Positions 48,708 to 64,000 of a stretch of 64,000 nucleotides of DNA are shown here, one piece after another (within the stretch, counting starts at the first letter, position 1; the number at the start of each line of letters is the position of its first letter). The notes under the pieces are model-generated. The model was not told the origin of the DNA. It did not search any database and saw only the letters and a program-made list of their open reading frames with translations. Origin of the DNA: an uncultured bacterium (GTDB taxonomy: Bacteria > Desulfobacterota > BSN033 > UBA1163); assembly GCA_938002255.1 (NCBI GenBank), contig CALLAL010000003.1, forward strand, positions 65,639 to 129,638, read 5' to 3'. A program made the translations under genes and the position numbers.

Positions 48708-48871
48708 CAACAAACCTCTAAACCTATTTATAATCTTAAAAATCCATTCAATCAAGATGAGCCATTCAACATTCCTTTTGGGTTGAGAGGATGAACTCGT
48801 CTGACTTGTACAGACTATTTACCATCTAAATGAAATTGAATGATTCACCCTATTTCACCTACGACTTGACA

Positions 48872-48890
48872 AATGCAACATTGTTGCATT
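48872..48890. promoter_or_regulatory. Perfect 19-bp palindrome AATGCAACATTGTTGCATT, a candidate Fur-family (Zur) box, abutting a TTGACA -35
   Basis: It is a 9-1-9 palindrome. It sits immediately after TTGACA (48866-48871) and 24 nt upstream of the regulator ATG at 48914. It lies in the divergent region shared with the rSAM cluster. Confidence 0.5.
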
Positions 48891-48913
48891 ATCCTGATTT
48901 TAGGATTGGTCAC

Positions 48914-49339
48914 ATGAGAAATGGCCCGAGTAAGATTTTTCTTAGACTTCAAAAGCAGGGGGTTCGGCTTACCCGGGCTCGGGGGGCTATTATTGATCTT
49001 CTGATCAAGAAGCAAACTTTCCTTTCCTTAGCAGACCTTAAGAAGGGCTTGGAAAGAAAGAAGGTTAGGGCTGACCGGACGACCCTTTACAGGGAAATCC
49101 TCTTTTTAAAACAACAGGGTATGATCTGTGAAATACCGATGGGCGGAGGAAAAAAAGGATACAAGATCTGCGAGGATGGCCATCATCACCATCTCATCTG
49201 CATCCGATGTAATAAGGTTGAAGAGATTGCGTTGAAGAACACCCTGGCCCCTCAGGAGAAAGAAATCGCTCGACTAAGGGGTTTCATGGTTTTGGAACAT
49301 CTGCTCGAATTTTACGGGTTTTGTGAGGATTGCCAATAA
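48914..49339 (+). CDS. Fur family transcriptional regulator (Zur-like by genomic context)
   Basis: It has a winged-helix N-terminus. HHHLICIRCNKVEE and C..C at the C-terminus are Fur-family metal sites. It heads an operon with znuACB. Confidence 0.75.
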   Translation: MRNGPSKIFLRLQKQGVRLTRARGAIIDLLIKKQTFLSLADLKKGLERKKVRADRTTLYREILFLKQQGMICEIPMGGGKKGYKICEDGHHHHLICIRCNKVEEIALKNTLAPQEKEIARLRGFMVLEHLLEFYGFCEDCQ

Positions 49340-49617
49340 TGCGCTGGTCTGAATCTGTTTTCATCAAGTGTGCTTTCATTTTGTTGGGGTTATTTAGCCT
49401 TGGCCTCCTTGTCTCCGTTTTTCATCATCATGAGGATGGATTGTCTCATGAGACCTGCCTCCTCTGTGTTCTGATAGCCCATCAAACGGATATGGCGATT
49501 CAGCATGAAGATCCCGCGTTCCTGCCTAATGCCCATCTTCTTTTTTCATCGAACATAGACCCCACCTTTCTTTCAACTTCCCATCAAACATTCCTGATCC
49601 GAGCTCCTCCTGCATAA
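49339..49617 (+). CDS. Small membrane protein with an HHH/Cys motif, translationally coupled to the Fur-family gene (TAATG overlap)
   Basis: One TM helix is followed by VFHHHEDGLSHETCLLCVLIAHQ. Confidence 0.4.
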   Translation: MRWSESVFIKCAFILLGLFSLGLLVSVFHHHEDGLSHETCLLCVLIAHQTDMAIQHEDPAFLPNAHLLFSSNIDPTFLSTSHQTFLIRAPPA

Positions 49618-49666
49618 TCTTGTTCCTCTCGTAAGCCATACTTTTTCGGATAAGGAGGTGTTTGTT

Positions 49667-50680
49667 ATGCCTACCCGTCAGCTGAACTGGGTTGTTGTAG
49701 TCGTCTCTATTTTGATTGTCATTTTTACATCTGTCTCTTGCCAGAAGAAAGAACAAGAGGCAGTAAAAGGTAAGAAGATCAAAGTCATCACCACCCTCTT
49801 TCCTCTTTACGATTTTGCTAAAAACATAGGTCAGGATAAGGCCGAGGTTGTTCTTTTGTTACCCCCTGGTGTTGAACCCCACAGTTTTGAACCTAAACCC
49901 GAGGATATCGTTCGAATTAACAAAGCTGATCTCTTTGTCTTTACGGGCAAATATATGGAGCCCTGGGCAGAGGATGTTCTGAAAGGATTGGATCACAAGA
50001 ATCTGATCGTGGTCGATTCCTCTCATGGGATCTCCTTGATGGAGGAAAAGGGGAAACATGAACACCCACATGGCCACCAGCACGAACATAAAGAAGTCCA
50101 TGGTCACAAAGAGGACCACACACATCAGCATAAGGAAGGACACCATCATCAGATGGATCCTCATTTCTGGCTCGATTTTGGTCATGCCCAAAAGATGATA
50201 GATCATATCCTTGAGGGTTTCGTTCAAAAAGATCCTTCCCATAAGGAGTTCTATCTCCAAAATGCCGAACGATACAAGTCGAGGTTGAACGAACTTGACC
50301 TAAAATTCAAAGAGGTCCTCTCTCGTTGCAAGAAAAAGGTGTTTGTCCACGCCGGGCACTTCGCCTTCGGGTACCTGGCAAAAAGATACGGCCTGGAATA
50401 TGTTTCTGCCTATGGTTTTTCTCCCGATGCGGAACCCTCTCCACAAAAAATGGTTGAGCTGACAAAGACCCTGAAAAAGCATGGCCTTCAGCATATTTAT
50501 CATGAGGAGTTGATCACCCCAAGGGTAGCAGAAACCCTCGCCAAAGAGACCAAAGCTTCTCTATTGAAGCTTCATGGAGCACATAATCTGACCAAAGACG
50601 AATTGGATAAGGGAATTACTTTTATTTCCCTGATGGAGGAAAACCTCAAGAGCCTGGAGGTTGGGCTCCAATGTCAGTAA
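49667..50680 (+). CDS. znuA: Zinc ABC transporter substrate-binding lipoprotein with His-rich loop
   Basis: A lipobox is present. The His-rich loop reads HEHPHGHQHEHKEVHGHKEDHTHQHKEGHHHQ. The fold is TroA/ZnuA-like. An AAGGAGG SD precedes it. Confidence 0.85.
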   Translation: MPTRQLNWVVVVVSILIVIFTSVSCQKKEQEAVKGKKIKVITTLFPLYDFAKNIGQDKAEVVLLLPPGVEPHSFEPKPEDIVRINKADLFVFTGKYMEPWAEDVLKGLDHKNLIVVDSSHGISLMEEKGKHEHPHGHQHEHKEVHGHKEDHTHQHKEGHHHQMDPHFWLDFGHAQKMIDHILEGFVQKDPSHKEFYLQNAERYKSRLNELDLKFKEVLSRCKKKVFVHAGHFAFGYLAKRYGLEYVSAYGFSPDAEPSPQKMVELTKTLKKHGLQHIYHEELITPRVAETLAKETKASLLKLHGAHNLTKDELDKGITFISLMEENLKSLEVGLQCQ

Positions 50681-51426
50681 GTGTGGTATCCGTCAGAAAT
50701 CTCTCGTTCCGCTATAATTCTGAAGAAGTATTGGCTAACATATCCTTCGAAGTTGGCCAGGGGGATTATGTCGGCCTTGTGGGACCAAATGGTTCCGGCA
50801 AAACGACGCTAATCCGTAACCTGCTCGGACTCCTCAAGCCGTCCGCAGGAGCCGTGTCTCTATTTGGGAAGAGCCTTTTGGATTTCCACGAATGGCATAA
50901 GGTCGGTTATCTTTCCCAGAAATTCATAACTTCCTATCACCACTTTCCGGCAACGGTGAGAGAAGTTGTTTCTATGGGGCTCCTCTCCACCAAGAGATTT
51001 CCAAAGCGGATGGGACCTCCTGATGACAGAGCGGTAGAGAAAGCTCTGGCATGTATGGGAATCCTCGACCTGAAAAACAGACTGATTCATGAGCTCTCCG
51101 GAGGACAGCAGCAGAGGGTTTTCATCGCACGAACCATAGTAAACGAACCCGAGCTTCTGATCCTTGACGAACCGACGGCGGCAGTCGACCCGGAGACAAG
51201 AGAACGATTTTTTAGCCTCCTGAGAGACCTTCATCATCAGAAGCAAACTACCATTATCCTGGTGACCCACGATATCGGAAGTATTGGGAAATACGCTTCC
51301 AAGATGATGTTCCTGGATAAGAGGGCCATCTTTTACGGGTCGTTTGAAGCCTTCTGTCAGTCTGTGGAAATGACGAATCTTTTTGGAAGTCTCTCTCAAC
51401 ATCTCATTTGTCACAGGCACGGGTAA
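50671..51426 (+). CDS. znuC: Zinc ABC transporter ATP-binding protein
   Basis: Walker A GPNGSGKTT, signature LSGGQQQRV and Walker B LILDEP are present. Confidence 0.85.
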   Translation: MSVSVVSVRNLSFRYNSEEVLANISFEVGQGDYVGLVGPNGSGKTTLIRNLLGLLKPSAGAVSLFGKSLLDFHEWHKVGYLSQKFITSYHHFPATVREVVSMGLLSTKRFPKRMGPPDDRAVEKALACMGILDLKNRLIHELSGGQQQRVFIARTIVNEPELLILDEPTAAVDPETRERFFSLLRDLHHQKQTTIILVTHDIGSIGKYASKMMFLDKRAIFYGSFEAFCQSVEMTNLFGSLSQHLICHRHG

Positions 51427-51429
51427 CGT

Positions 51430-52260
51430 ATGGAGATGATCGATTTCTTGGGGTATGGGTTTATCCAAAGGGCATTGATTACCGGTTTTTTTATCGCCCT
51501 CCTCTGTTCTTGTCTCGGATTCTTTCTGGTTCTGAGGCGTCTCTCTCTGATTGGCGATGGTTTGGCCCATGTCACCTTTGGAAGTGTAGCCGTGGCGCTG
51601 TTTTTAAAAACCTTTGCTCTCTATGTATCCATTCCACTGGTTATGATCAGCGCCCTGGGGATCTTAAGGTTGATTGAAAGGGCAAAATTACACGGTGATG
51701 CCGCTATCGGAATCGTCTCGTCGCTTGGGATTGCCATGGGAATCCTCCTAGCGAGCCTGGCCGGAGGATTTAACGTCGATCTCTTCAGTTATCTCTTCGG
51801 AAACATCTTGGCGATTAGCCAGGAGGAGATGGTCTCCTCGATCCTTCTCTCCGGGGTTGCTCTATTACTTGTTGTTTTTTTCTATCATGACCTTTTGTCC
51901 ACCACGTTTGATGAAGAATCGGCAAAGACCGGAGGAATTAAAACCAGGAGAATCAATACGATTCTCTTTCTTTTGACCGCTGTGACTGTGGTCTTAACCA
52001 TGAAAGCTGTAGGCATTTTATTGACCTCTGCACTTCTGATTCTACCGGCAGTCACCTCGTTACAGATTTTAAAAGGTTTCAAAGCATCCCTTCTGATCTC
52101 GTCGCTGATTGGTGTTCTGTCGGTCGTTGGGGGAATCTTTATCTCTTTTGGGTTGAATCTACCAACAGGTGCAACCATCGTTTTGTTTAACTTTTGTATC
52201 TTTGTGGGCATGTTTGTCTATGGGAAGCAAAAAGCAGAAAAAAAGGAGGAGCGACCATGA
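51430..52260 (+). CDS. znuB: Zinc ABC transporter permease
   Basis: A 276-aa polytopic membrane protein of the ZnuB/TroCD family. Confidence 0.85.
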   Translation: MEMIDFLGYGFIQRALITGFFIALLCSCLGFFLVLRRLSLIGDGLAHVTFGSVAVALFLKTFALYVSIPLVMISALGILRLIERAKLHGDAAIGIVSSLGIAMGILLASLAGGFNVDLFSYLFGNILAISQEEMVSSILLSGVALLLVVFFYHDLLSTTFDEESAKTGGIKTRRINTILFLLTAVTVVLTMKAVGILLTSALLILPAVTSLQILKGFKASLLISSLIGVLSVVGGIFISFGLNLPTGATIVLFNFCIFVGMFVYGKQKAEKKEERP

Positions 52261-53810
52261 AGATCTTTATTATGGTTTCACTATTGATGTTTTTGCTCTA
52301 TCAAAATGTTTCTGGCCAAAATCTGGAAGAGCGGATCAAGGTCCTTGAGGAAGCTTTAAGAAAACAGGAACAGACAATCCGGGAACAACAGAAGCTCATT
52401 GAGGAATTAATAGCGGATATGGAGCGACAAAAAACTACGAAGCCGCAAGAGGTAGCCCGGCCAAAAGAAACGGCCCCTCCTGCTGAGGCGGAATCAATGA
52501 AACCGTCCACCCTGGAGAGGGTAAAAGAGGTTCTTCTTCCCAAGGAAGGGGAACCGAAAAAGGACATCCTTTCCTACCAAGTAGGTGGAACGACTCTGCG
52601 CCTGATAGATATTTCCTTTGATGTCCTGGTGGCTACCGGCGCTTCAACCGTGCGCGATGAGCCATTAGGAATTCTCCAAGGAGGAGGGCATGACCCCCGA
52701 AAACGGGGATTTACCGTCCAGAATGTTGAACTTTCATTTATTGGTGCGGTCGATCCTTACTTGAATGCAGAAGCCCATCTTATCTACTTCCTGGATCCGA
52801 TCAGTGGGGAATCAAAATTTGAGTTAGAGGAAGCTTTTTTTACGACCCGAAAATTACCCTTTGGGCTCCTGTTGAAAGGCGGACATTTCTTAACAGAATT
52901 TGGAATAATCAATTCCCAGCATCCCCATCAATGGCAGTGGCAGGATGCCCCACTTATCAATACGCGTCTTTTCGGACCTGACGGGATGAGAGGCCCTGGC
53001 GCGCGATTAGCCTGGCTCACTCCTCTTCCCTGGTTCTCTGAAGTCTATTTGGGAGTACAAAATGCCAATGGTGAGACCATGGCCAGCTTCCTGGCCAATG
53101 ACGAATTTTTTGAAGAACGACCGATCGGTGGTCGACCTTTTGTCGATCGTGATGTTAGAAACCTGAAAGATCTGGTCTATCTCGGCCGCTGGAGCAATTT
53201 CTGGAATCTTACGGATGAGTTAACTATGAAGATGGGACTGTCAGGATTATACGGGCCCAATGCCACCGGACCAAAGGGCCAGACCCTGATCTATGGGGCC
53301 GATCTTAAATTGAAATGGCGCCCCACCCATCATTTTCGGGGCTGGCCATTTCTCCTCTTCGAGTCGGAGATCATGAAGCGTGATTACCGTGCCGATCGTT
53401 TCTTCGATTTAGGACCCGATGGCATCAGCGAAACGCCAGACGACATTTTACTTCCCAAGCAGACCCTGAAGGATTGGGGATTCTATGCCCAGTTACTCTG
53501 GGGATTTCGTCCCCGTTGGGCCACAGGAGTCCGGTTTGAGTATGCAAGTGGGAGTAAGGATAGTGTCGACGTTGATTTCCTATCAGGGACGGTGGATATC
53601 CTCCGGAGAAACCAGGACCCTTTGCGGAACAACCGTTATCGAATCTCTCCTCTGCTAGCCTGGCACCCCACGGAGTTTTCACGGTTTCGACTGCAGTATA
53701 ACTATGATCGATTTTCGAAAAGAATCCAAGACTTTGGAGGCCGGGACGCCCACTCAGTCTGGTTAGGAGTAGAGTTTATGCTCGGAGCCCATGCCGCTCA
53801 TAAGTATTAA
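52257..53810 (+). CDS. Putative outer-membrane channel with N-terminal coiled coil (porin-like), part of the zinc operon
   Basis: A signal peptide is present. The coiled-coil segment reads LEERIKVLEEALRKQEQTIREQQKLIEELIADMERQ. It is followed by a region with alternating aromatic residues that ends ...AHKY. An ATGA overlap links it to znuB. Confidence 0.45.
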   Translation: MKIFIMVSLLMFLLYQNVSGQNLEERIKVLEEALRKQEQTIREQQKLIEELIADMERQKTTKPQEVARPKETAPPAEAESMKPSTLERVKEVLLPKEGEPKKDILSYQVGGTTLRLIDISFDVLVATGASTVRDEPLGILQGGGHDPRKRGFTVQNVELSFIGAVDPYLNAEAHLIYFLDPISGESKFELEEAFFTTRKLPFGLLLKGGHFLTEFGIINSQHPHQWQWQDAPLINTRLFGPDGMRGPGARLAWLTPLPWFSEVYLGVQNANGETMASFLANDEFFEERPIGGRPFVDRDVRNLKDLVYLGRWSNFWNLTDELTMKMGLSGLYGPNATGPKGQTLIYGADLKLKWRPTHHFRGWPFLLFESEIMKRDYRADRFFDLGPDGISETPDDILLPKQTLKDWGFYAQLLWGFRPRWATGVRFEYASGSKDSVDVDFLSGTVDILRRNQDPLRNNRYRISPLLAWHPTEFSRFRLQYNYDRFSKRIQDFGGRDAHSVWLGVEFMLGAHAAHKY

Positions 53811-53828
53811 AAAGAAAGGAGTCATCTT

Positions 53829-54881
53829 ATGCGAAATACATTAACGGGGATTTCCTTGGGTTTTGTCCTTCCATTTCTTCTTTTTTTATTGATGGTTATC
53901 CCTTCCATTGTTCATGCACAGGGGGACCTCAGACCTCTTCGGGTCTGCGCTACGGTTCCTGATCTCGGCGATCTTGTCCGGGAAATCGGAGGTGATCAGG
54001 TTTCGATTACAGTGTTCGCCAAGGGGAGAGAAGATCCGCATTTCATTGAGGCAAAACCCAGCTTCATAAAAGCTCTGAGTCAGGCCGATCTTTTTTTACA
54101 GATTGGGATGGAGCTGGAGATGGGATGGGTTCCGGTCTTACTGCAGAATGCCCGCAATGGACGCGTCCTCCCCGGAGCGACGGGACATCTGGATGCATCC
54201 AGGGTAATTCAACCAATGGAGGTTCCAACGGGAATCGTGGATCGTTCCTTGGGTGATGTACATCCGACAGGGAATCCCCATTATCTTCTGGACCCGCTGA
54301 ACGGACTTCAGGTGGCACGAATGATCACCGACAAGCTAATTGAAATCCGGCCCGAAAAAAAATCTTTCTTCGAAGAAAGGTATCGGGTATTATATAGGAA
54401 GATGGGAAATGCCATGGCAGGGGAGCGACTGGCAGGAAAGTATGAATTTGAGAAACTCGCCCTATTATTTTCTGAAAATCACCTATCAGAATTTCTAAAG
54501 GAACGAAGAGAAGAAAATGTTCTGGGAGGCTGGTTGGGAAGAATGCTTCCTCTGATTGGAATGAAAGCGGTGGCTGACCATAACTTGTGGCCCTATTTTG
54601 CCCGACGATTTGGAATATCAGTTGTAGGTTTTTTGGAACCCAAGCCCGGGATTCCTCCCACTACCAGACATCTTCAGACGATTGTAGAAAAAATGAAGTC
54701 AGAGGGAATCAAATTGATATTAGCTTCACCCTATTTCGATATACGTCATGCCCAATTTGTTTCAAAAAACGCAGGGGCTAAGGTCGTTCCGATGGCCCAT
54801 CAGGTTGATTCCCGGCCAAGCACGAAGAACTACTTGAGTATGATCGACTACAATGTCCGGCAGGTTTCTGAAGCATTTTAG
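53829..54881 (+). CDS. Second metal ABC transporter substrate-binding protein (TroA/ZnuA-like, no His-rich loop)
   Basis: A signal peptide precedes a cluster-9 substrate-binding fold with metal-binding His and Asp positions. Confidence 0.75.
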   Translation: MRNTLTGISLGFVLPFLLFLLMVIPSIVHAQGDLRPLRVCATVPDLGDLVREIGGDQVSITVFAKGREDPHFIEAKPSFIKALSQADLFLQIGMELEMGWVPVLLQNARNGRVLPGATGHLDASRVIQPMEVPTGIVDRSLGDVHPTGNPHYLLDPLNGLQVARMITDKLIEIRPEKKSFFEERYRVLYRKMGNAMAGERLAGKYEFEKLALLFSENHLSEFLKERREENVLGGWLGRMLPLIGMKAVADHNLWPYFARRFGISVVGFLEPKPGIPPTTRHLQTIVEKMKSEGIKLILASPYFDIRHAQFVSKNAGAKVVPMAHQVDSRPSTKNYLSMIDYNVRQVSEAF

Positions 54882-54924
54882 CAAGACAGAGGCCAACGAG
54901 GACGGACACGGATGGGTTAACAGG

Positions 54925-55710
54925 ATGAAGCAATCAAATATGGAACCTCATACATTTATTTTTAAAATGAACGGTCTCTCCCTTGCCTATGGGGACCGTA
55001 GCATCCTCAAAAACGTCAATCTGACCGTCAGGCCCGGTGAGTTCTGGTTTCTGCTTGGCCCAAACGGTGCGGGGAAAACCACTCTTCTCAAAGCCCTGTT
55101 AGGAGTTCTCCCTCCAAAGGGAGGGACAATCGACCTAAATCCCAAGCTCGCCCGGGGGGAATTTATTGGATTTGTGCCTCAGCGCTGTGATTTCAACCCA
55201 TCCCTTCCAACCACTGTTAGGGAGTTTGTCTCCTTAGGTCTTGCCGGAATTACGATCCATAAGCAGGAGAGAGCCGAGCGGCTTTTCTGGGCTCTTGAGA
55301 AGATGAATCTAACAGGCATGGAAGGGAAGAATTACTGGTCTCTCTCAGGTGGACAGAGACAGCGAGCCCTGGTGGCACGGGCTCTTATCCGCCGTCCCGG
55401 ATTTCTCATTGCTGATGAACCAACGAAAGACCTTGACCTTCCAGCGGCCAACGCCCTCATGGAATCCTTAACCGATCTCAACCGGGCGGAGAATCTTACG
55501 ATTCTCTTCGTTACCCATGATTTGACGCTGGCTGCTCGATATGCTACCCATATTGCCCTTTTTGTGGACGGCCTCGTCCAGGTGGGACAGAATCCAGCCA
55601 TCCTAAACCCGGATTGCCTTAAACGGACTTACGGGGTTCCGGTGTCGGTTTTTGAAGAGCCTTCGGGAGGTCTCTGTGTGCGTCTTCATAGAAAGGAGAG
55701 GAGAGTTTGA
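54925..55710 (+). CDS. Metal ABC transporter ATP-binding protein (second set)
   Basis: Walker A GPNGAGKTT, signature LSGGQRQRA and Walker B LIADEP are present. Confidence 0.75.
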   Translation: MKQSNMEPHTFIFKMNGLSLAYGDRSILKNVNLTVRPGEFWFLLGPNGAGKTTLLKALLGVLPPKGGTIDLNPKLARGEFIGFVPQRCDFNPSLPTTVREFVSLGLAGITIHKQERAERLFWALEKMNLTGMEGKNYWSLSGGQRQRALVARALIRRPGFLIADEPTKDLDLPAANALMESLTDLNRAENLTILFVTHDLTLAARYATHIALFVDGLVQVGQNPAILNPDCLKRTYGVPVSVFEEPSGGLCVRLHRKERRV

Positions 55711-56579
55711 TTGAAAATTTCCTTTCCTCCTGGGATCTGTTTTTCCAGAGCTACCTGTCAGGATGGTTGATCAGTTTCCTGCTTTCGATCATCGGGGTTC
55801 TGGTGGTGGCAAGGGATCAGATCTTCATCGGCGCGGCCATCTCCCAGGCCTCAACGCTGGGAGTGGCCCTGGCCCTTTGGGCAGGGGCTTTCTTTCATGA
55901 GGGTGACTTCACCTTCCTTCATTCGACTGCCTTCCCATCAGCAATGGCTGTCATTTTTTCAGTTATTGCAGCCTCCCTCACAGGTCGGGGAGGGGCGACG
56001 TCCAAGGAGAGCCACGAAGCCATTACGGGATGGGTTTTTCTGATCTCGGCAAGCCTGGCCATTCTTCTTGTTTCCCGAAGCCCCCACGGACTGGAGGAAG
56101 TCTATCGCCTCCTTTCATCAAGTCTGATCGGGGCTACGGCAACGGATGTTTTGGTCTTTGGCATCCTAACCCTTATCACTGTCGTTCTCATCTCAGTGTT
56201 TTACCGAAAAATCGTTCTCTTTGCCCTGGATTCCTCCATGGCGATGGCTATTGGCATGAAGCTCAAATTCTGGGGTATGATCACCTCGGCTTGGCTCGGT
56301 CTTGCGATTGGTCTTTCCATCAGGGCTTCTGGAATGCTTTACACCTTTGGCTGTCTCATCCTTCCGGCTCTGATCGCTAAGAATTTATGCCGGGAGATCC
56401 GATGGATGTTTTTAATCGCACCGTTTATCGCCTTGGGAACAGGATGGATAGGTTTTCTATTAGCACACCATTTCGACTATCCGCCGGGGCAGCTGACTGT
56501 AGCATTATTCTGCATCCTCCTGTTGATCGCATGGATATTTCGCTGGTCCAGAGTGGAATCATGTCAGGGAATCCAGTAA
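55707..56579 (+). CDS. Metal ABC transporter permease (second set)
   Basis: A 290-aa polytopic protein of the ZnuB/TroD family. Confidence 0.8.
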   Translation: MIENFLSSWDLFFQSYLSGWLISFLLSIIGVLVVARDQIFIGAAISQASTLGVALALWAGAFFHEGDFTFLHSTAFPSAMAVIFSVIAASLTGRGGATSKESHEAITGWVFLISASLAILLVSRSPHGLEEVYRLLSSSLIGATATDVLVFGILTLITVVLISVFYRKIVLFALDSSMAMAIGMKLKFWGMITSAWLGLAIGLSIRASGMLYTFGCLILPALIAKNLCREIRWMFLIAPFIALGTGWIGFLLAHHFDYPPGQLTVALFCILLLIAWIFRWSRVESCQGIQ

Positions 56580-56651
56580 GCCCTGGGGGATTTCCCGACG
56601 GACCTCTTGGGCTAACTCGTAGTTGATTTGTCAGAATGAGAGGCGAAGAAC

Positions 56652-57941
56652 ATGGAGAGACCAACACCGTTAACTCTCGCTTTCATTGTTTTCATTATTT
56701 TCTTGTCCTATCCTCTGATGGCTGCGGATGAACGATATCCCGTCGGTCATCCGGATCAGGGACTCCCGAATCCTGATTATCAGCTAACCCCTTACCACGA
56801 GGATCCAAACCATGTGCTCAATCGAATATTCAGAGCTTCTTTTCTTGTGACCACCGCCCCTGCAGAAGTGGGTTTGGCTTTACCCCGGGAGCATCGAAAT
56901 CCGACTGAATTTTTCAGGAAAGGTTGGTATTTCGCTGTGCGCCCCGGAACACCGGCAGATCAGAGACTTTTTGGGGGTGATACACGTCTTCTCTCCCGGG
57001 AGAGTTTTTCGTCTGAAGAAGCCACGGCCTTTGCTAAAGCCCTTGGGGAAGTGGATGAAAAGGTGGTTCAGGCTCTCAAGAAACGCCCTGAGCTTGCTGT
57101 GATGTTCCAGCACGATCTCATGCGTCTTGCCCAACGCTTGATGGACGTCAAGCGGAATCGCGAATTGCTCAAGCCGATCGGAGCGGTGATAAGAAATGTT
57201 GCCCTTTCATCAGACCAACTGGGTCAACTTGCATCTACCTACGAATTGGGTCTGAGGTTTAAGAGCATTGATAGCCCGCTCCCAGAGGATTTGCTTCGCA
57301 CAGACCCTCCGGTGAATGGCCCCTATATCGAACTACTCCGGATGTCGACCAGTCTCTTTGATGCCTCCCACACCCTTTCCTGGTCCCGTGTTTTTATAGC
57401 CTGGCCAACGGGTGTGAAAAACCTCCATCAATTTTTATCCGACCAAACAAAGGGCCATAGAATAGAGGTTCCCACTGGAACAAAGTCCATTCTGGTCCAA
57501 GGCATTGTTGCTATCGATGATCGTGGCCGCCCGTATGCCACTCCTCTGGCCTTCGATGTTCGACTCAAGTGGTTGGAGAACCGGGATCCCCTGTCGGCCT
57601 GGAACAAGACGACAACACGCGACGGCATCCAAATTCGTGCGTATGAGTTGAGACGCACTTCCATGCGAGAAGGTTCTCACCATCAACTCTTTCGGGCGTT
57701 ACATGATGATGACCAGGCATTATTCCGGGACTATGGTGCACTCAAACACACGACGCAAGCGGCACAATGTACAGTTTGTCACCGGCTCCATGATGTCTCG
57801 GACGCTCATTTAGGGGGTTTTATCACTTTGGGTCCTTCGGCAAACCCGCACCTTGCCCTTACTGGATGGGAGAGGCTTCGATTAGCAGAACGTGAGGTCT
57901 TACACTTTATCAAAAAACTTCCAGGGGTGGGGAGAAACTAA
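56652..57941 (+). CDS. Secreted hypothetical protein with a single CxxCH motif
   Basis: A signal peptide is present. AAQCTVCHRL lies near the C-terminus. It is the last gene of the zinc operon. Confidence 0.45.
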   Translation: MERPTPLTLAFIVFIIFLSYPLMAADERYPVGHPDQGLPNPDYQLTPYHEDPNHVLNRIFRASFLVTTAPAEVGLALPREHRNPTEFFRKGWYFAVRPGTPADQRLFGGDTRLLSRESFSSEEATAFAKALGEVDEKVVQALKKRPELAVMFQHDLMRLAQRLMDVKRNRELLKPIGAVIRNVALSSDQLGQLASTYELGLRFKSIDSPLPEDLLRTDPPVNGPYIELLRMSTSLFDASHTLSWSRVFIAWPTGVKNLHQFLSDQTKGHRIEVPTGTKSILVQGIVAIDDRGRPYATPLAFDVRLKWLENRDPLSAWNKTTTRDGIQIRAYELRRTSMREGSHHQLFRALHDDDQALFRDYGALKHTTQAAQCTVCHRLHDVSDAHLGGFITLGPSANPHLALTGWERLRLAEREVLHFIKKLPGVGRN

Positions 57942-59689: not shown

Positions 59690-60247
59690 TTAAAGCCCGG
59701 AAACTTCAATCCAGTAGAGGAGAAAAAGAACTCCTACCGTGACGGGAAGAATGACTCCCCAGGGATTCACCTTGAAAAGTTCGGGCCAGGTGATCTCTCC
59801 AAAATAGCCTCTGTTCAGAATGGTTTTGTCCAGTTCTGAGAAGAGCTGTGCAAAAAGACCTGCACCGATCAGAATTCCTACGACCCCTCCCAAAAGAGCA
59901 TCAAGTGCTCCCTGGCCAACAGCCCCGGCCAGCGTTCCCGGACAATACCCTAAAAGGCCGAAACCCACCCCGAAGAGAAGTCCTCCGATCACTATCGATC
60001 CAAAAGATCCTGGTTTTGGATGAAGAGTGGCTAAGCCCAGGCCTCGTAAAAGATAGACACCAATCATTCCAGTGACCATGGCAGAAAGCATAATCTTCAC
60101 GACTGTGAAATCAGTTAATAACAGTTGTCCAATAATGACGTTATAATCGGTCACTCCTCCCTTCTGAAGAAGAAACCCGAATAACACCCCGATCCCACAA
60201 CCGATCCCTAACTGGAGATCCTTTTTTGTACGTATGTTCTGCAGCAT
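59690..60247 (-). CDS. YeeE/YedE family sulfur-compound transporter half-protein
   Basis: The GYCPG motif is present. Length is 185 aa and the protein is hydrophobic. Confidence 0.7.
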   Translation of the reverse strand: MLQNIRTKKDLQLGIGCGIGVLFGFLLQKGGVTDYNVIIGQLLLTDFTVVKIMLSAMVTGMIGVYLLRGLGLATLHPKPGSFGSIVIGGLLFGVGFGLLGYCPGTLAGAVGQGALDALLGGVVGILIGAGLFAQLFSELDKTILNRGYFGEITWPELFKVNPWGVILPVTVGVLFLLYWIEVSGL

Positions 60248-60272: not shown

Positions 60273-60779
60273 TTAATAGAGTAGCATGGCCGTTATGATC
60301 CCACCGATGAAAAAACAGATGGCTGCCAGCCAACTGCTGACAGCCAGTTGAAGCGTCCCGCTAATCCCATGCCCGCTTGTGCATCCTCCCGCCCAGCGGG
60401 CTCCAAATCCTAAAAGGACTCCTCCAACCAGAGAGACAATCCATCGCAGGCTAAAGGACGGCCCAAAATGAGAGGCCCATGTTGATGGGACAGAAATCAT
60501 CCGAAAAGAACCCGAAAAGATCGCCGAAATCAATGCTCCAAAGAAGATCCCAACCACCAGCATCCATTCCCAGTCAATCTCAGGAGTGAATTTTTTATAA
60601 TAGGCTTTCTCTTTCACCTTTTCACCTCGAAAGAGACCCTCAATCATCCCGCTCGACCGGGAGAAGGCAGTGGAGCATCCGATCGGTTTATCAGAAAGTA
60701 AAAAGGTGATCCAGCTTAATACCCCAATGCCAATCCCTACCGCATAAGGGGACCATCGCTCCATCATCAGCCAGTCCAT
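60273..60779 (-). CDS. YeeE/YedE family sulfur-compound transporter half-protein
   Basis: The GGCTSGHG motif is present. The start is taken at MDWLMMERW (60779), which avoids overlap with the upstream gene. Confidence 0.7.
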   Translation of the reverse strand: MDWLMMERWSPYAVGIGIGVLSWITFLLSDKPIGCSTAFSRSSGMIEGLFRGEKVKEKAYYKKFTPEIDWEWMLVVGIFFGALISAIFSGSFRMISVPSTWASHFGPSFSLRWIVSLVGGVLLGFGARWAGGCTSGHGISGTLQLAVSSWLAAICFFIGGIITAMLLY

Positions 60780-60819
60780 GATCTTCCTCCTGAGAATGGG
60801 TTTTAGACAAAATGACCCT

Positions 60820-62235
60820 CTATTTTTTGAAGGTTTGAGGACCATGAGGGGCAATACAGACTGGACATTCTGGCCCGAACCCTGCCGCATTGTAGCCCAC
60901 CATTCCCCCAGCCAAATTAAAGACCTCCTTGAAACCCCGCATTTTCAAAAGGCTTGCCCCCAGACTGGATCGATGTCCACTGTTACAGATGACAGCAACC
61001 GGGACTTCTGGGTTGAGTTCCTCGTATCTCTTTCTTAAATCAGCAACCGGAATATTGATCGATCCTTCAAGATGTCCGGTCATATATTCTCTTTTTGCCC
61101 TAACATCAACGAGGGTAATGGGGGGCCCTTCGGTCATCCGTCGTTTTAATTCCTCAGCAGAGAGTTGACAGACATGCTGAGTGACCAGACCTGATTTCGC
61201 CCACTCATACATCGCGCCATCCAAATAACCAACAGTCCGATCCAACCCTACCCTTCGAAGCTGAATCACCGCTTCCTCGGCTTGGGACACATTTTCAGCA
61301 ACCAAGAGGATGTTTGCCTCTGGTGGGAGAACCCACCCTGCAAAGGTTGAAAAGTTTCCTCCCAGATCAATATGATAGGCCCCTGGAACATGCTGGCCTC
61401 CAAACGCTTCATAGGGTCGAAGATCAAGCACGATGGTATTCTTATTCTTCGCCATTTGATAAAAGGTTTGAGAATCCAGAGGCATCAAGGCCGGGAGATC
61501 CTTTGTGAGGGTTGGACCTTTACGATTAATGTCGCTACACCGGCTAAAGTGATCCGGAGCTTCTGGCATCTCTGTGGTTAAGACTTTTACGAATTCGTTT
61601 TGGTCTTTAATCTGCAAAGCATAATTATATCGTTTTTCATAGCCGATCGTGCTCGTCCTTTTCGCAGACATTGCTCTCCCGCATAGGGATCCCGCCCCAT
61701 GAGCAGGATAAACCTCACAAAAATCAGGTAAGTTTGCCAACTTCTTTAAACTCTCAAACAATTTACCTCCTAACTCTTTTGCCATACCCGGAAAGAGATC
61801 TGGTCTCCCCACATCTCCAACAAAGAGTGTATCTCCGCTGAAAAGAGCGATCGGTTCTTCTCCTCGTGAATGGTCAATGACGATATAAACAATATGCTCA
61901 GGCGTATGGCCAGGCGTTTCATGGACTCTGATCTCCATATCTTCCATCTCAAAGGTATCGCCTTCAGAAAGCCCGAAATGATCAAAATGGCAATTTCCCG
62001 ATTTGGGAGCATAAATTTTTGCTCCTGTCTTCTGAGCCAGATCCATATGGCCCGAAATGAAGTCAGCATGGAGATGAGTCTCAAGAATATGGGTGATCTG
62101 CAACCCCATCGTTTTGGCTGTCTCGAGATAAATTTGAATATCCCTTTTGGGATCAACCACCGCACAGGTTTTAGAACCACAGAGGAGATAAGAGATGTGG
62201 GATAACCCCTGAACAAAAAATGATTGGATCAGCAT
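60820..62235 (-). CDS. MBL-fold persulfide dioxygenase-like domain fused to two rhodanese domains (CstB-like)
   Basis: The N-terminus has the metallo-beta-lactamase motif HLHADFISGH. Two rhodanese modules follow. The second has the active-site Cys in VICNSGHRSS. Confidence 0.8.
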   Translation of the reverse strand: MLIQSFFVQGLSHISYLLCGSKTCAVVDPKRDIQIYLETAKTMGLQITHILETHLHADFISGHMDLAQKTGAKIYAPKSGNCHFDHFGLSEGDTFEMEDMEIRVHETPGHTPEHIVYIVIDHSRGEEPIALFSGDTLFVGDVGRPDLFPGMAKELGGKLFESLKKLANLPDFCEVYPAHGAGSLCGRAMSAKRTSTIGYEKRYNYALQIKDQNEFVKVLTTEMPEAPDHFSRCSDINRKGPTLTKDLPALMPLDSQTFYQMAKNKNTIVLDLRPYEAFGGQHVPGAYHIDLGGNFSTFAGWVLPPEANILLVAENVSQAEEAVIQLRRVGLDRTVGYLDGAMYEWAKSGLVTQHVCQLSAEELKRRMTEGPPITLVDVRAKREYMTGHLEGSINIPVADLRKRYEELNPEVPVAVICNSGHRSSLGASLLKMRGFKEVFNLAGGMVGYNAAGFGPECPVCIAPHGPQTFKK

Positions 62236-62300: not shown

Positions 62301-63956
62301 TTACTTCTTGTCTCCTGATAAAGCCATTTTCAAACTGATAGCCCCCCGAAGATCTCCGACGAGAAACCCTGTAGCTCGATCGTCTGGGTATTTTTCTTTT
62401 ATGATCGCCTGGACCTCAGTGGGAATGTTCTCCTTGGGCCCATGGCAGGTGATACAGAGAGAAGCAATAGTAAGAGGTTTAAGATATCGAAGGTATTTTC
62501 TCCCCTGCTCTTCAACCACTTCAATATGTTCCTCGGGCAATCTTTTCTCACGGTTAAGGCGATCCAGTTCCAGGAGCATTTTAGTTTCAAAAGCATCGGG
62601 AAGATTTTTGGGATTCCGATATCGCAAGCTGACCCGCCGGAGGGAGTGGCCTGTCTGGGTTGAAAACCGGTTCGTCATCTCTTGGGCCAATTCAGAACAG
62701 ACACGAACAGCATTTGCAAAACCTCCTTTTTGAATTTCTTGCATCAAGAGTCCACGAACTGTATCCATCAACTCATTTGAAATCCTTCTTGCCTCAAGGA
62801 GTTCTTTCTCTAAGGACTCTTTCCTCTCCGGAAGGGTCTCCCAGGCCATCCAGATGGGTTCTTTTGGACCATGATCCTCATGCCAGACATAATAGATTCG
62901 ATTGCCTGAGATCTCCATCTGAGGATCGTATTTCCCGAAACGGGAAGTGGTTCGTTTTCGGGGAGTCCATCCTGTGCCATCCTGATTGAGAACGGCAGTC
63001 CATATTTGACGATATTTCCCATCCGATTCTTCCCAGACATAATAAATCTGTTTTCCATGAACCTGCAATTGGGGAGTATATTTGTCAAAGGGCGTGGAGG
63101 TTCTTTTAATGACCTGCCATCCAGTCCCATCAAGATTCATTTCAGCCGTCCAGATCTGGTATCTGGACTTCTGCCAATCCGGACCATCGGCTTCATGCCA
63201 GGTGAAGTAGATTCTGTTTCTGTGAACCAGCATTTGGGGGTTATGTTTGTCAAAAGGACTATGGGTTCTTTTGACCATCTGCCAATTTTTACCCTCTCGG
63301 CTCATGGAAGCAGTCCAAATCTGAAAATGGACTCCGTCCGATTCTCGCCAGACAAGATAAATGGTCTCACCAACCACTTGAAGCTGGGGTTCATATTTAT
63401 CGTAGGGAGTATGGGTGCGCTTCGTAGCGTTCCATCCTGTTCCATCGATCTTCATCTCAGCGGTCCAGATCTGTCTGTATTTCCCATCCGATTCGTTCCA
63501 GGTATAGTAAATCTTATCCCCTACGACCTGGAGCTGTGGAAACTGCTTGTCAAAGGGAGTATGGGTCCTCTGCACTTCTCTCCATCCTGTGCCATCAAGA
63601 TTCATCTCCATCGTCCAGATCTGTCGGTTTTTGGTCTCATCGGGTTGCTGACGAACATAATAAATCTTAGACCCTGAGACATGGAGTTGGGGAAAAACCT
63701 TATCAAAACGACCATAAGTTCTTTGGGTATGTTTCCATCCTGTCCCATCAACATTCATTTCCGCAGTGAATACTTGCCGGAAGGGACCGTCGTATTCATG
63801 CCAGACATAATATACTTTTTCTCCAACAATTTGAAACTGGGGTTGATAGCCTGTAGAAGGTGTTCGTATGGGAACGAAATCATTCGCTTGGGCTGGAAAA
63901 GGCAAACAGAGAAAAAGAATCGACAGAATCATCATCGCTCTAAACCAAACTTTCAT
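62301..63956 (-). CDS. Secreted protein: 7-repeat beta-propeller-like domain fused to a C-terminal DUF3365/Tll0287-like CxxCH heme domain
   Basis: A signal peptide is present. About seven tandem ~48-aa repeats follow, of the form IYYVWxExDGxxRQIWTAEMNxDGTGWxxxxRTxTPFDKxxPQLQVxG. The C-terminus has CITCHG in a DUF3365-like region. Confidence 0.6.
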   Translation of the reverse strand: MKVWFRAMMILSILFLCLPFPAQANDFVPIRTPSTGYQPQFQIVGEKVYYVWHEYDGPFRQVFTAEMNVDGTGWKHTQRTYGRFDKVFPQLHVSGSKIYYVRQQPDETKNRQIWTMEMNLDGTGWREVQRTHTPFDKQFPQLQVVGDKIYYTWNESDGKYRQIWTAEMKIDGTGWNATKRTHTPYDKYEPQLQVVGETIYLVWRESDGVHFQIWTASMSREGKNWQMVKRTHSPFDKHNPQMLVHRNRIYFTWHEADGPDWQKSRYQIWTAEMNLDGTGWQVIKRTSTPFDKYTPQLQVHGKQIYYVWEESDGKYRQIWTAVLNQDGTGWTPRKRTTSRFGKYDPQMEISGNRIYYVWHEDHGPKEPIWMAWETLPERKESLEKELLEARRISNELMDTVRGLLMQEIQKGGFANAVRVCSELAQEMTNRFSTQTGHSLRRVSLRYRNPKNLPDAFETKMLLELDRLNREKRLPEEHIEVVEEQGRKYLRYLKPLTIASLCITCHGPKENIPTEVQAIIKEKYPDDRATGFLVGDLRGAISLKMALSGDKK

Positions 63957-64000
63957 AAATCTTATTCTCCTTTCGTATGCGATAGGGTAGGCATCTCTGA

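What the first reader, a model, noticed from the sequence alone, without database searches (positions are those of the whole stretch)
62301..63956. Novel architecture: 7x ~48-aa repeat beta-propeller fused to a DUF3365/Tll0287-like c-type heme (CxxCH) domain
The repeats (IYYVW-E-DG--RQIWTAEMN-DGTGW----RT-TPFDK--PQLQV-G) are highly regular, with an Asp-box-like DGTGW turn and a split first blade (velcro closure). I do not recognise them as a standard WD40, PQQ or Kelch family. The C-terminal roughly 170 aa carry CITCHG in a DUF3365-like context; in the Tll0287 family this context binds heme c. The gene lies upstream and co-directional with a persulfide-dioxygenase/rhodanese and thiosulfate-transporter cluster. 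This suggests a periplasmic redox or sulfur-species sensor or electron carrier.
Basis: partly seen in the sequence, partly recalled or inferred. Interest (0 to 1): 0.65.

Follow-up and report, generated by a model that had tools for sequence, protein, structure and literature searches.

The report
Periplasmic propeller fused to Cys/His heme domain
This gene encodes an exported protein in which a seven-bladed propeller of an undescribed repeat family is fused to a small heme-binding domain; the fusion is rare and unstable, and it links two proteins that otherwise sit side by side in stress-defence gene islands of uncultured syntrophic bacteria.

Summary
ORF 62301-63956 (-) encodes 551 aa: a Sec-type signal peptide, seven ~50-aa repeats (51% mean identity), and a Tll0287-like/DUF3365 domain (Pfam E=1e-27). 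That domain has CITCH and a conserved distal Cys, which align with the Cys68/His145 heme ligands of Tll0287. AlphaFold2 (pLDDT 91.5) gives a seven-bladed propeller closed by the N-terminal strand.

The repeats fit no named family cleanly. DUF5050 hits are weak and partial, and no PDB sequence relative exists. Even so, 2,263 cluster representatives carry this repeat type.

New findings:
- The propeller normally occurs as a stand-alone ~385-aa exported protein in Syntrophaceae/Thermodesulfobacteriota MAGs. It lies in islands with selenocysteine peroxiredoxin, Fur-family regulators, Tat-exported SOD, YeeE pairs and an IhOCC-type octaheme cytochrome.
- In four loci a separate Tll0287-like gene follows the propeller gene directly.
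- Only about six intact or near-intact fusions were found, all followed by persulfide dioxygenase-rhodanese and two YeeE-like genes (the frameshifted L009 contig ends within the dioxygenase gene).
- In the closest relatives the blades have been deleted repeatedly, leaving scars.

The function is inferred, not shown: a periplasmic redox module. This is a new domain architecture built from known kinds of parts, of moderate interest.

The parts
62301..63956 (-). Complete ORF, 551 aa: propeller fused to Tll0287-like heme domain
   Evidence: Four full-length orthologs at 75-90% identity.
63967..63972 (-). Shine-Dalgarno-like AAGGAG upstream of the ATG
   Evidence: Read directly from the sequence.
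63885..63956 (-). Sec-type signal peptide, residues 1-24 (MKVWFRAMMILSILFLCLPFPAQA, AxA cleavage motif)
   Evidence: Read from the sequence. No signal-peptide predictor was run. Stand-alone homologs also have hydrophobic N-termini.
63843..63884 (-). N-terminal 'velcro' strand, residues 25-38 (NDFVPIRTPSTGYQ). It corresponds to the RT.TPFDK tail of a repeat and completes blade 7.
   Evidence: AF2 strand 28-35. Repeat alignment.
62832..63842 (-). Seven tandem blade repeats, residues 39-375. Units are 39-88, 89-139, 140-189, 190-239, 240-294, 295-344 and 345-375 (the last truncated).
   Evidence: Of 120 positions near-invariant in stand-alone homologs, 119 are kept.
62325..62819 (-). Tll0287-like / DUF3365 / sCache_heme domain, residues 380-544
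   Evidence: Pfam PF11845, E=1e-27. PDB 5b82_A, E=4.5e-14. Foldseek to 5b82 gives TM(target) 0.76, rmsd 3.1 A.
62697..62699 (-). Codon for Cys420, the predicted distal axial heme ligand. It aligns with Cys68 of Tll0287.
   Evidence: Alignment. Conserved in 124 of 124 relatives.
62442..62456 (-). CITCH, residues 501-505: covalent heme c attachment motif. His505 aligns with His145 of Tll0287.
   Evidence: C501, C504 and H505 are conserved in 124 of 124 relatives.
60820..62235 (-). Downstream gene: MBL-fold persulfide-dioxygenase-like domain plus two rhodanese domains (471 aa). The 65-nt gap has an RBS and no terminator-like site.
60273..60779 (-). YeeE/YedE-type half-transporter (a). The probable start is Met38 of the longest ORF, which gives 168 aa as in orthologs.
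59690..60247 (-). YeeE/YedE-type half-transporter (b), 185 aa
57938..59665 (-). SulP-family anion permease with STAS domain, the last gene of the co-directional run
   Evidence: The next gene is convergent.

Best explanation
The gene encodes a soluble periplasmic two-domain protein. A Sec signal peptide exports it.

The N-terminal 350 aa fold into a seven-bladed, four-stranded beta-propeller. It belongs to a large repeat family with no Pfam model of its own. Blade-specific invariant residues sit in the B-C and D-A loops (WHE/WNE/WRE...RQ and DK-xx-PQ). By canonical propeller topology these loops lie on one face around the central pore, so that face is most likely a specific ligand-, cofactor- or partner-binding site.

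The C-terminal 170 aa form a Tll0287-type sCache_heme domain that should carry one covalently bound c-type heme with Cys/His axial ligation. Stand-alone members of this domain family behave as low-reactivity redox proteins rather than gas sensors.

The fusion is a derived state. It joins two proteins that in related genomes are encoded by separate genes, in four loci directly adjacent (propeller, then Tll0287-like, then IhOCC-type octaheme cytochrome), inside islands of defence genes against oxidative, nitrosative and sulfur stress.

Inferred mechanism: the heme domain shuttles electrons, or acts as a redox switch, for whatever the propeller face binds. In this lineage the pair is co-transcribed with a persulfide dioxygenase-rhodanese, a split YeeE-type sulfur-anion transporter and a SulP permease. 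Together these would deal with reactive sulfur and oxygen species when an anaerobe meets oxygen.

Shown: the anatomy, conservation, gene neighbourhoods and fusion/deletion history. Inferred: heme binding, periplasmic location, electron transfer and the substrate.
For: Anatomy.

Heme ligands: C420, C501, C504 and H505 are conserved in 124 of 124 relatives and in all fusion orthologs. They align with Cys68/His145 of 5b82.

Stand-alone Cys/His sCache_heme proteins showed stable ligation, no strong O2 or NO binding and 'redox-related' behaviour (bioRxiv 10.64898/2026.02.01.703092).

The fused propeller is under the same constraint as stand-alone ones. It keeps 98-100% of 120 near-invariant positions.

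Gene-order links between propeller and Tll0287:
- They are separate adjacent genes in L075, L086, L101 and L106.
- L011 has Tll0287, then octaheme, then propeller.

Island context: 59 of 79 non-redundant propeller loci have ROS, sulfur or cytochrome genes within 5 kb. A peroxiredoxin lies immediately downstream in 21 of 70. The octaheme matches IhOCC 4qo5_A at E=3.5e-141.

Operon structure in the window: 65-, 25- and 24-nt gaps, an RBS, and no terminator between the fusion and the PDO gene. The order fusion, PDO-Rhod, YeeE x2 recurs in L001/L002, L003 and L029; in L009 the contig ends within PDO-Rhod, so the YeeE genes are not covered.
Against: - No experiment exists on any member of the propeller family.
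- No cofactor or catalytic signature was identified, and the propeller contains no Cys.
- The model's pTM of 0.73 against pLDDT 91.5 suggests the two domains are not rigidly docked.
- I could not inspect coordinates or PAE, so the 'conserved face' is inferred from canonical propeller topology only.
- In the closest relatives the blades were deleted at least four separate times while the heme domain was kept. One such deletion is in the same sulfur operon (L028). So the heme domain does not need the propeller in cis.
- The more distant propeller loci L022-L025 lack the stress genes.
- Wider relatives of the repeat occur in large surface proteins with LamG, dockerin or Fn3 domains, which points to binding rather than redox chemistry.
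Confidence: 0.45

Rival explanations
1. Periplasmic sensor. The Cys/His heme changes ligation or redox state in response to sulfide/persulfide, NO or O2. The propeller acts as a docking platform that passes the signal to a membrane partner or to the transporters encoded downstream.
For: [quoted passage not shown] Cys/His hemes are used as ligand-switch sensors in other proteins (my own knowledge, e.g. CooA). Fur-family regulators lie close to many propeller loci.
Against: The protein has no transmembrane segment and no HAMP, kinase, MCP or GGDEF output. The preprint assigns stand-alone Cys-ligated members to redox roles, not sensing. No two-component genes are consistently adjacent.
Confidence: 0.2
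2. A largely accidental fusion. The propeller is a binding module (lectin-like or glycan/polymer-binding, as its wider family suggests) with a role independent of the heme protein. Loss of a stop codon and intergenic spacer, or insertion next to a pre-existing Zip-Tll0287 locus, joined them without creating a new function. The fusion is now decaying.
For: Propeller scars occur in 11 of the nearest Tll0287-like clusters (P0122-P0127, P0129-P0132, P0136), with several different junctions. L010 has Zip followed by a stand-alone Tll0287 with no propeller and no sulfur genes at the same locus. The best structural neighbours are seven-bladed polysaccharide lyases and hydrolases (PL42, GH145, PL24/25) and sialidases. 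Wider repeat relatives carry LamG, dockerin, Fn3 and BNR_2 domains.
Against: Intact fusions persist at 75-90% identity across at least five independent samples. They keep 98-100% of the family's invariant propeller positions. Separate propeller and Tll0287 genes are direct neighbours in four other loci, which chance does not predict. Structural matches are only 10-12% identical and are generic propeller hits.
Confidence: 0.25
3. Artefact: a chimeric ORF created by misassembly or a sequencing error that merged two genes.
For: One relative (L009) shows the two parts as separate calls.
Against: The L009 split is a frameshift inside the propeller, not a gene boundary. Continuous fused ORFs occur in the window, in P0001-P0003 and in L029, from independent samples and assemblers.
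Confidence: 0.02

Closest known systems
Tll0287 of Thermosynechococcus (PDB 5B82) and stand-alone sCache_heme/DUF3365 proteins (PF11845)
   Same: The C-terminal domain matches by sequence (E=4.5e-14), by Pfam (E=1e-27) and by fold (TM 0.76). CxxCH is conserved, and so is the distal Cys that aligns with Cys68. The location is extracytoplasmic and there is no signalling output.
   Different: Here the domain has lost its own signal peptide and is fused behind a 350-aa propeller. This architecture is not among those listed in the 2026 survey of the family: stand-alone, cytochrome c fusion, or HAMP/kinase/MCP/GGDEF fusion.
DUF5050 (PF16472) and PD40/TolB-like propeller repeats
   Same: Weak but consistent HMM similarity: 53 of 54 orthologs match at E<=0.01, best 1e-11. 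Both have an 'IYY...W...DG' style blade.
   Different: The score is only just above the cut-off (28-31 bits against 27) and covers part of the profile. The repeat period is ~50 aa, with a DGTGW hairpin and an RT.TPFDK..PQ loop not modelled by Pfam. DUF5050 itself has no known function.
Seven-bladed polysaccharide lyases/hydrolases (PL42 FoRham1 7ESK, GH145 BT3686 5MUL, PL24/25 ulvan lyases) and CylK
   Same: These are the best Foldseek matches to the propeller, TM(target) 0.5-0.66.
   Different: Identity is only 10-12%. No catalytic residues were mapped, no carbohydrate-active genes lie nearby, and the context is redox and stress genes.
Propeller-plus-c-heme redox enzymes (cytochrome cd1 nitrite reductase, quinohemoprotein alcohol dehydrogenase, hydrazine synthase) - from my own knowledge
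   Same: The overall logic is the same: a periplasmic propeller that holds the reaction site is joined to a c-heme domain that relays electrons. An HAO-family octaheme cytochrome is a neighbour in related loci.
   Different: There is no sequence or top-ranked structural similarity, no PQQ or heme d1 signature, and the heme domain has a Cache fold rather than a class I cytochrome c fold. This is an analogy only.
BigR/Blh and CstR/CstB-type sulfide-detoxification operons (PDO-rhodanese fusions with YeeE/TauE-type membrane proteins) - from my own knowledge and PMC13047784
   Same: The downstream genes are of this kind: an MBL-fold PDO-like domain plus rhodanese domains, YeeE-type transporters, and a CoA-disulfide-reductase-like gene in related islands.
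   Different: Those operons are not described with a periplasmic propeller or a Tll0287-like heme protein. No ArsR/CstR-type repressor was seen next to the window's operon.

Membership tests
Tll0287-like / DUF3365 / sCache_heme (PF11845) | Pfam HMM score above the gathering threshold | tested here: met
   97.8 bits against 24.1, E=1e-27, residues 380-544 covering profile positions 2-143 of 144.
Tll0287-like / DUF3365 / sCache_heme (PF11845) | Canonical CxxCH heme c motif, reported >99% conserved in the family | tested here: met
   CITCH at 501-505. Conserved in all 124 aligned relatives and all fusion orthologs.
Tll0287-like / DUF3365 / sCache_heme (PF11845) | Distal axial Cys (the Tll0287-type, 'Cluster 1' redox subgroup) | tested here: met
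   Cys420 aligns with Cys68 of 5b82 and is conserved in 124 of 124 relatives.
Tll0287-like / DUF3365 / sCache_heme (PF11845) | Cache-like fold with the helix insertion that carries CxxCH | tested here: met
   Foldseek of the AF2 model against 5b82: TM(target) 0.76, rmsd 3.1 A over 173 columns. Helix 499-505 carries the motif.
Tll0287-like / DUF3365 / sCache_heme (PF11845) | Extracytoplasmic location, required for heme c attachment | tested here: inconclusive
   The N-terminus has Sec signal features (K/R, hydrophobic core, AQA) on reading the sequence. No predictor was run and there is no experiment.
Tll0287-like / DUF3365 / sCache_heme (PF11845) | Covalently bound heme with thiolate/His spectra | not testable with these tools
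   Needs expression with Ccm, heme staining, UV-vis and EPR.
Seven-bladed beta-propeller fold | Seven four-stranded antiparallel sheets arranged in a ring, with closure by a strand from the other terminus | tested here: met
   The AF2 model has pLDDT >90 over residues 30-370. It shows 27 strands in seven groups, and N-terminal strand 28-35 completes the last blade. The top PDB matches are 6- and 7-bladed propellers.
DUF5050 (PF16472) | HMM match above the gathering score over most of the profile | tested here: inconclusive
   28.2 bits for the full protein and 31.1 bits for the propeller alone, against a cut-off of 27. Profile positions 49-238 of 283 are covered. 53 of 54 orthologs hit at E<=0.01. 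This indicates a distant relationship, not clean membership.
WD40 / PQQ / Kelch propeller repeat families | Significant match to the family repeat HMMs | tested here: not met
   No WD40 (PF00400), PQQ or Kelch_1-6 hit at E<=0.1. Only PD40 at 20.2 bits for the full protein (cut-off 20.9; 23.7 bits, above the cut-off, when the propeller alone is scanned) and Kelch_FKB95 in 6 of 54 orthologs.
Asp-box (BNR) propellers | SxDxGxTW motif in the hairpin between strands 3 and 4 of the blades | tested here: inconclusive
   The hairpin position is the same (between strands C and D). The motif is [NS]xDGTGW, with D and T shifted by one position relative to the canonical pattern. There is no BNR Pfam hit on this protein. 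Sialidases and sortilin are among the structural matches.
Propeller-heme redox enzymes (cd1 nitrite reductase, quinohemoprotein dehydrogenases) | Homology of the propeller to the d1- or PQQ-binding propellers, and a class I cytochrome c domain | tested here: not met
   No such Pfam, NCBIfam or PDB sequence hits, and none among the top 50 Foldseek matches.

The most novel reading that the evidence does not exclude
The stand-alone propeller, the Cys/His-ligated Tll0287-like heme protein and the IhOCC-type octaheme cytochrome together form a previously unrecognised periplasmic enzyme system of syntrophic Thermodesulfobacteriota. It would detoxify a reactive oxygen, nitrogen or sulfur species. In this reading the propeller's invariant, asymmetric central face is the catalytic or substrate-binding site, and the window's fusion is the 'Rosetta stone' that reveals the partnership.
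Probability: 0.18. Interest if true: 0.75.

Novelty: new variant of a known kind. Interest (0 to 1): 0.5.

Why it matters
The propeller belongs to a repeat family with 2,263 cluster representatives at 50% identity and no Pfam model of its own. It has no solved structure and no known function. The ~385-aa stand-alone form is a conserved, exported component of the oxidative-stress islands of uncultured syntrophs (Syntrophaceae-type MAGs). How these organisms tolerate oxygen is poorly understood.

The fusion, together with the separate adjacent genes in related loci, gives a concrete and testable partner for this propeller: a Cys/His c-type heme protein. It also suggests a likely electron source, an IhOCC-type octaheme cytochrome.

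The finding adds a non-signalling, non-cytochrome fusion partner to the sCache_heme family, which was characterised only recently. The closely related blade-deleted variants are a clear natural example of domain loss by recombination between internal repeats.

Tried and rejected
- A profile search of the PDB with the propeller alignment found nothing at E<=10.
- NCBIfam has no model for either half of the protein at a meaningful score.
- Rfam found nothing in the window.
- The promoter/terminator scan was no better than shuffled sequence, and served only to note the absence of a terminator between the fusion and the next gene.
- No paralog of either domain exists elsewhere in the 64-kb window.
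- Misassembly was considered and rejected because of the independent occurrences.
- Pfam hits to Pput2613-deaminase, dsrm, Spin-Ssty and similar families are below threshold, cover 20-40 residues of a repeat, and are treated as spurious.
- Forcing the blade-deleted variants onto the propeller alignment to count lost invariant positions gave unreliable numbers, because the heme domain was dragged into propeller columns. The scars are therefore described from the BLAST segment maps.
- I could not obtain model coordinates or PAE, so no residue-distance or interface analysis was possible.
- The more distant stand-alone relative P0314 sits on contigs too short (about 2.2 kb) to give any context.
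Full report
**1. The observation**

The minus-strand ORF 62301-63956 is real and encodes 551 aa. An AAGGAG ribosome-binding site lies upstream of the ATG.

Motif positions show seven tandem units:
- IYYVW-type at residues 48, 98, 149, 199, 249, 304 and 354.
- DGTGW-type at residues 70, 121, 171, 221, 276 and 326.
- PQ[LMF] at residues 39, 89, 140, 190, 240, 295 and 345.

The units are 50-55 aa long. When aligned they are 35-64% identical, mean 51%, with consensus PQ..V.G..IYYVW.E.DG...QIWTA.M..DGTGW....RT...FDK.

The last unit stops after three strands. The N-terminal segment NDFVPIRTPSTGYQ resembles the missing tail of a unit.

The N-terminus MKVWFRAMMILSILFLCLPFPAQA reads as a Sec signal peptide. 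This is from reading the sequence; no predictor was run.

The C-terminal part matches Pfam Tll0287-like (PF11845) at 97.8 bits, E=1e-27. It matches the Tll0287 crystal-structure sequence 5b82_A at E=4.5e-14. CITCH is at residues 501-505.

**2. Structure**

An AlphaFold2 model was built on a 110-sequence alignment. It has mean pLDDT 91.5 and pTM 0.73.

Residues 28-374 form 27 strands grouped into seven four-stranded blades. The N-terminal strand 28-35 completes blade 7, which is a velcro closure. Residues 381-545 form the helix-plus-sheet Cache-like domain.

Foldseek against the PDB returns generic 6- and 7-bladed propellers at 10-12% identity for the N-terminal part. These include PL42 rhamnose-glucuronate lyase, GH145, PL24/25 ulvan lyases, CylK and sialidases. 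For the C-terminal part it returns 5b82 at TM 0.76 and rmsd 3.1 A.

**3. The heme domain**

In the phmmer alignment, Cys420 aligns with Cys68 of Tll0287 and His505 with His145. These are the two axial ligands of the Cys/His-ligated heme (named in my memory of Motomura et al. 2017; the Cys/His ligation itself is restated in bioRxiv 10.64898/2026.02.01.703092).

C420, C501, C504 and H505 are invariant in 124 aligned relatives and in the four full-length orthologs.

The 2026 preprint reclassifies the family as heme-containing single Cache domains. It finds about half of them stand-alone. It shows that a Cys-ligated stand-alone member has stable Cys/His ligation and binds neither O2 nor NO strongly, consistent with a redox role. 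Members fused to signalling modules behave as NO sensors. It lists no propeller fusion.

**4. The propeller family**

Against 5.8 billion proteins, only P0001 (90% identity), P0002 and P0003 (75-77%) share the full architecture. More than 250 other hits are stand-alone proteins of ~380-390 aa at ~70-78% identity to the propeller. They have hydrophobic N-termini and essentially no annotation.

A scan of GTDB species representatives found 15 loci. All are MAGs labelled Syntrophaceae, Thermodesulfobacteriota or Deltaproteobacteria. The scan used only two exact peptide patterns, so it detects close relatives only and gives a lower bound on the family's taxonomic spread. Within what it can detect the stand-alone family looks taxonomically narrow, which would explain its high identity. 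It collapses to a single 50%-identity cluster, P0086.

The repeat type itself is widespread. There are 2,263 representatives at E<=1e-3 and 587 at E<=1e-10. Many are proteins of 500-3,500 aa that also carry LamG, dockerin, Fn3, glycine-rich or BNR_2 domains, and their repeat regions are not covered by any Pfam model.

Pfam DUF5050 hits 53 of 54 orthologs weakly (best 1e-11; 28-31 bits against a cut-off of 27 for the query, partial coverage). PD40 hits 33 of 54. A profile search of all PDB sequences finds nothing at E<=10.

So the repeats do not map cleanly to a family of known function.

Within the stand-alone family, each blade has its own invariant residues in the B-C loop and in the D-A loop:
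- B-C loop: WHEYDGP.RQ, QQPD..KNRQ, WNE.DG..RQ, WRE..G.HFQ, WHEADG.D...YQ, WEESDGK.RQ, WHEDHG..EP.
- D-A loop: DK followed by VF, QF, [YF]E, HN, YT or YD, then PQ.

By the canonical propeller topology these loops lie on one face around the central pore. I infer a specific, asymmetric binding or active site there, but could not check this on coordinates.

The fused propellers keep 98-100% of 120 near-invariant positions. They are therefore under the same constraint as the stand-alone proteins.

**5. Genomic context**

In the window the fusion is followed on the same strand by four genes:
- an MBL-fold persulfide-dioxygenase-like protein with two rhodanese domains;
- two YeeE/YedE half-transporters;
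- a SulP-STAS permease.

The gaps are short (65, 25 and 24 nt). An RBS precedes the second gene, and no terminator-like site lies between the first two genes. The next gene is convergent.

The same order recurs in L001/L002, L003 and L029, and as far as PDO-Rhod in the frameshifted L009, whose contig ends there. The fusion is preceded by Zip and/or Fur-KatG-SOD.

For the stand-alone propeller I collected 90 non-redundant loci.
- Of the 79 with at least 1.5 kb of flank, 59 have at least one marker gene within 5 kb.
- 36 have ROS-related genes (peroxiredoxin, SOD, KatG, rubrerythrin-like, Fur-family).
- 29 have sulfur-related genes (YeeE pair, PDO-rhodanese, SulP, CoA-disulfide-reductase-like).
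- 22 have a Tll0287-like gene or an octaheme cytochrome.
- The gene immediately downstream is a peroxiredoxin in 21 of 70.

The octaheme cytochrome is a close homolog of IhOCC (4qo5_A, E=3.5e-141). IhOCC is described as an octaheme nitrite reductase of the HAO clade (PMC9250108).

The SOD carries a twin-arginine motif.

The four most divergent loci (L022-L025) lack these neighbours.

**6. Origin and fate of the fusion**

In L075, L086, L101 and L106 the propeller gene ends at a stop codon. A separate Tll0287-like gene starts a few tens of nucleotides downstream (tblastn hit boundaries 27-72 nt apart), in another frame and with its own signal peptide. The octaheme gene follows. L011 has Tll0287, then octaheme, then propeller.

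The two proteins are therefore neighbours as well as fusion partners, a Rosetta-stone type of link.

At the window's own type of locus there is a series of states:
- L010 has Zip, a stand-alone Tll0287 with its own signal peptide, a 54-aa ORF and a radical SAM gene.
- L003 has Zip, the fusion, PDO-rhodanese, YeeE x2, SulP, the 54-aa ORF and the radical SAM gene.
- L028 has Zip, a 268-aa protein, PDO-rhodanese, YeeE x2 and SulP.
- L027 has Zip and a 234-aa protein with no sulfur genes.

The 227-268-aa proteins P0122-P0127, P0129-P0132 and P0136 are 70-82% identical to the query's heme domain. They begin with the propeller's signal peptide and velcro strand. This N-terminal piece is joined in one of three ways:
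- directly to blade 7 (query residues ~1-47 then 343 onward);
- to the linker (1-47 then 378 onward);
- to the last strand (14-37 then 364 onward).

Several different junctions exist, and the scars have diverged (for example RTPSKGHQPH and ERIDYMRHEDHG). These are real, independent deletions between internal repeats, not assembly collapses.

The L009 'split' is a frameshift inside the propeller.

I cannot decide between two origins: fusion of an adjacent pair, or insertion of a propeller gene in front of a pre-existing Zip-Tll0287 gene. Either way the fusion is derived, rare and repeatedly lost.

**7. What it most likely does**

Shown:
- an exported two-domain protein under purifying selection;
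- a heme domain with all the features of the Cys/His-ligated redox subgroup;
- a propeller with a conserved face;
- co-directional, tightly spaced sulfur-handling genes;
- a family-wide association with defence genes against oxidative, nitrosative and sulfur stress, and with periplasmic cytochromes.

Inferred:
- The heme domain relays electrons, or switches redox state, for the propeller's binding site.
- The operon handles reactive sulfur and oxygen species during oxygen exposure of an anaerobe. Persulfide dioxygenase needs O2, and YeeE-type proteins move thiosulfate (PMC13047784).

From my own knowledge, Cys/His-ligated c hemes are also the catalytic sites of thiosulfate-converting SoxAX and TsdA. 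That makes a sulfur-anion substrate attractive, but it is untested here.

The main rivals are a sensor role and a functionally neutral, decaying fusion of a binding propeller with an unrelated heme protein. The repeated loss of the blades favours the view that the heme domain works without the propeller in cis. The retained invariants and the separate-but-adjacent genes favour a real partnership.

**8. Verdict**

This is a new domain architecture for a recently characterised heme-Cache family, combined with a member of a large, unmodelled propeller-repeat family. It belongs to known kinds, and I judge it to be of moderate interest.

Its main value is as a lead. It gives an uncharacterised, conserved periplasmic protein of syntroph stress islands a testable partner.

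Noticed in passing
L005 8405-9109; L007/L008 9167-9874 and 3825-4532; 26 distinct genes across the fetched loci: The peroxiredoxin next to the stand-alone propeller has an in-frame TGA exactly at the peroxidatic cysteine codon (FYPGDFTFV*PTE) in all 26 distinct copies. Gene callers split it into two ORFs. It is most likely a selenocysteine peroxiredoxin. No SECIS element was sought.
   Followed up: partly
L028 3969-4775; L027 8001-8705; proteins P0122-P0127, P0129-P0132, P0136: These are blade-deleted derivatives of the fusion. The propeller's signal peptide and velcro strand are joined to blade 7 or straight to the heme domain. Several different junctions and diverged scars point to recurrent deletion between internal repeats.
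   Followed up: yes
L009 ~7827-7831: A 90%-identical copy of the fusion carries a frameshift inside the propeller, so it is annotated as two genes (341 aa and 205 aa). This is either a sequencing error or a pseudogene.
   Followed up: partly
L011 5111-6625; L013 14804-16336; L017 6362-7879; L021 251-1768: An octaheme cytochrome c (8 CxxCH) very similar to the Ignicoccus hospitalis octaheme nitrite reductase IhOCC (4qo5_A, E=3.5e-141) recurs in the Syntrophaceae-type islands, often next to YeeE pairs or PDO-rhodanese.
   Followed up: partly
L013 11076-11771; L017 2555-3238: The Fe/Mn superoxide dismutase next to the propeller has an N-terminal twin-arginine motif (TRRKFM / NRRRFI). This suggests a Tat-exported periplasmic SOD in an anaerobe.
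   Followed up: no
L003 167-910; L009 6172-6915; L010 7236-7973; L027 7229-7972; L028 3382-3918; L029 7156-7896: A Zip-family metal permease gene lies immediately upstream of the Tll0287-like gene, whether that gene is fused, blade-deleted or stand-alone. It is the most constant neighbour of this heme protein. The window ends 44 nt upstream of the fusion, so its own upstream gene is not visible.
   Followed up: no
window 48830-57941: On the other side of the operon lie a Fur-family regulator (48830-49339), two ZnuA/ABC/ABC-3 metal-uptake systems (49658-52260 and 53829-56579), and two ORFs with no Pfam match (52194-53810, 538 aa; 56652-57941, 429 aa). The second of these converges on SulP.
   Followed up: no
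window 60273-60890: The longest ORF for the first YeeE-like gene overlaps the end of the PDO-rhodanese gene by 71 nt. Orthologs are 168-170 aa, so the true start is probably Met38 at position 60779.
   Followed up: partly
Proteins P0004, P0241-P0268: The same ~50-aa repeat occurs 10 or more times in very large proteins (up to ~3,500 aa) alongside LamG, dockerin, Fn3, glycine-rich or BNR_2 domains. The repeat regions have no Pfam coverage, so this is an unmodelled repeat family.
   Followed up: partly
L018 and L021 (same MAG, GCA_018333535.1): One MAG carries two propeller paralogs. One sits in the Prx-Fur island. The other lies between a PDO-rhodanese/YeeE/SulP cluster and a second YeeE pair.
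   Followed up: no
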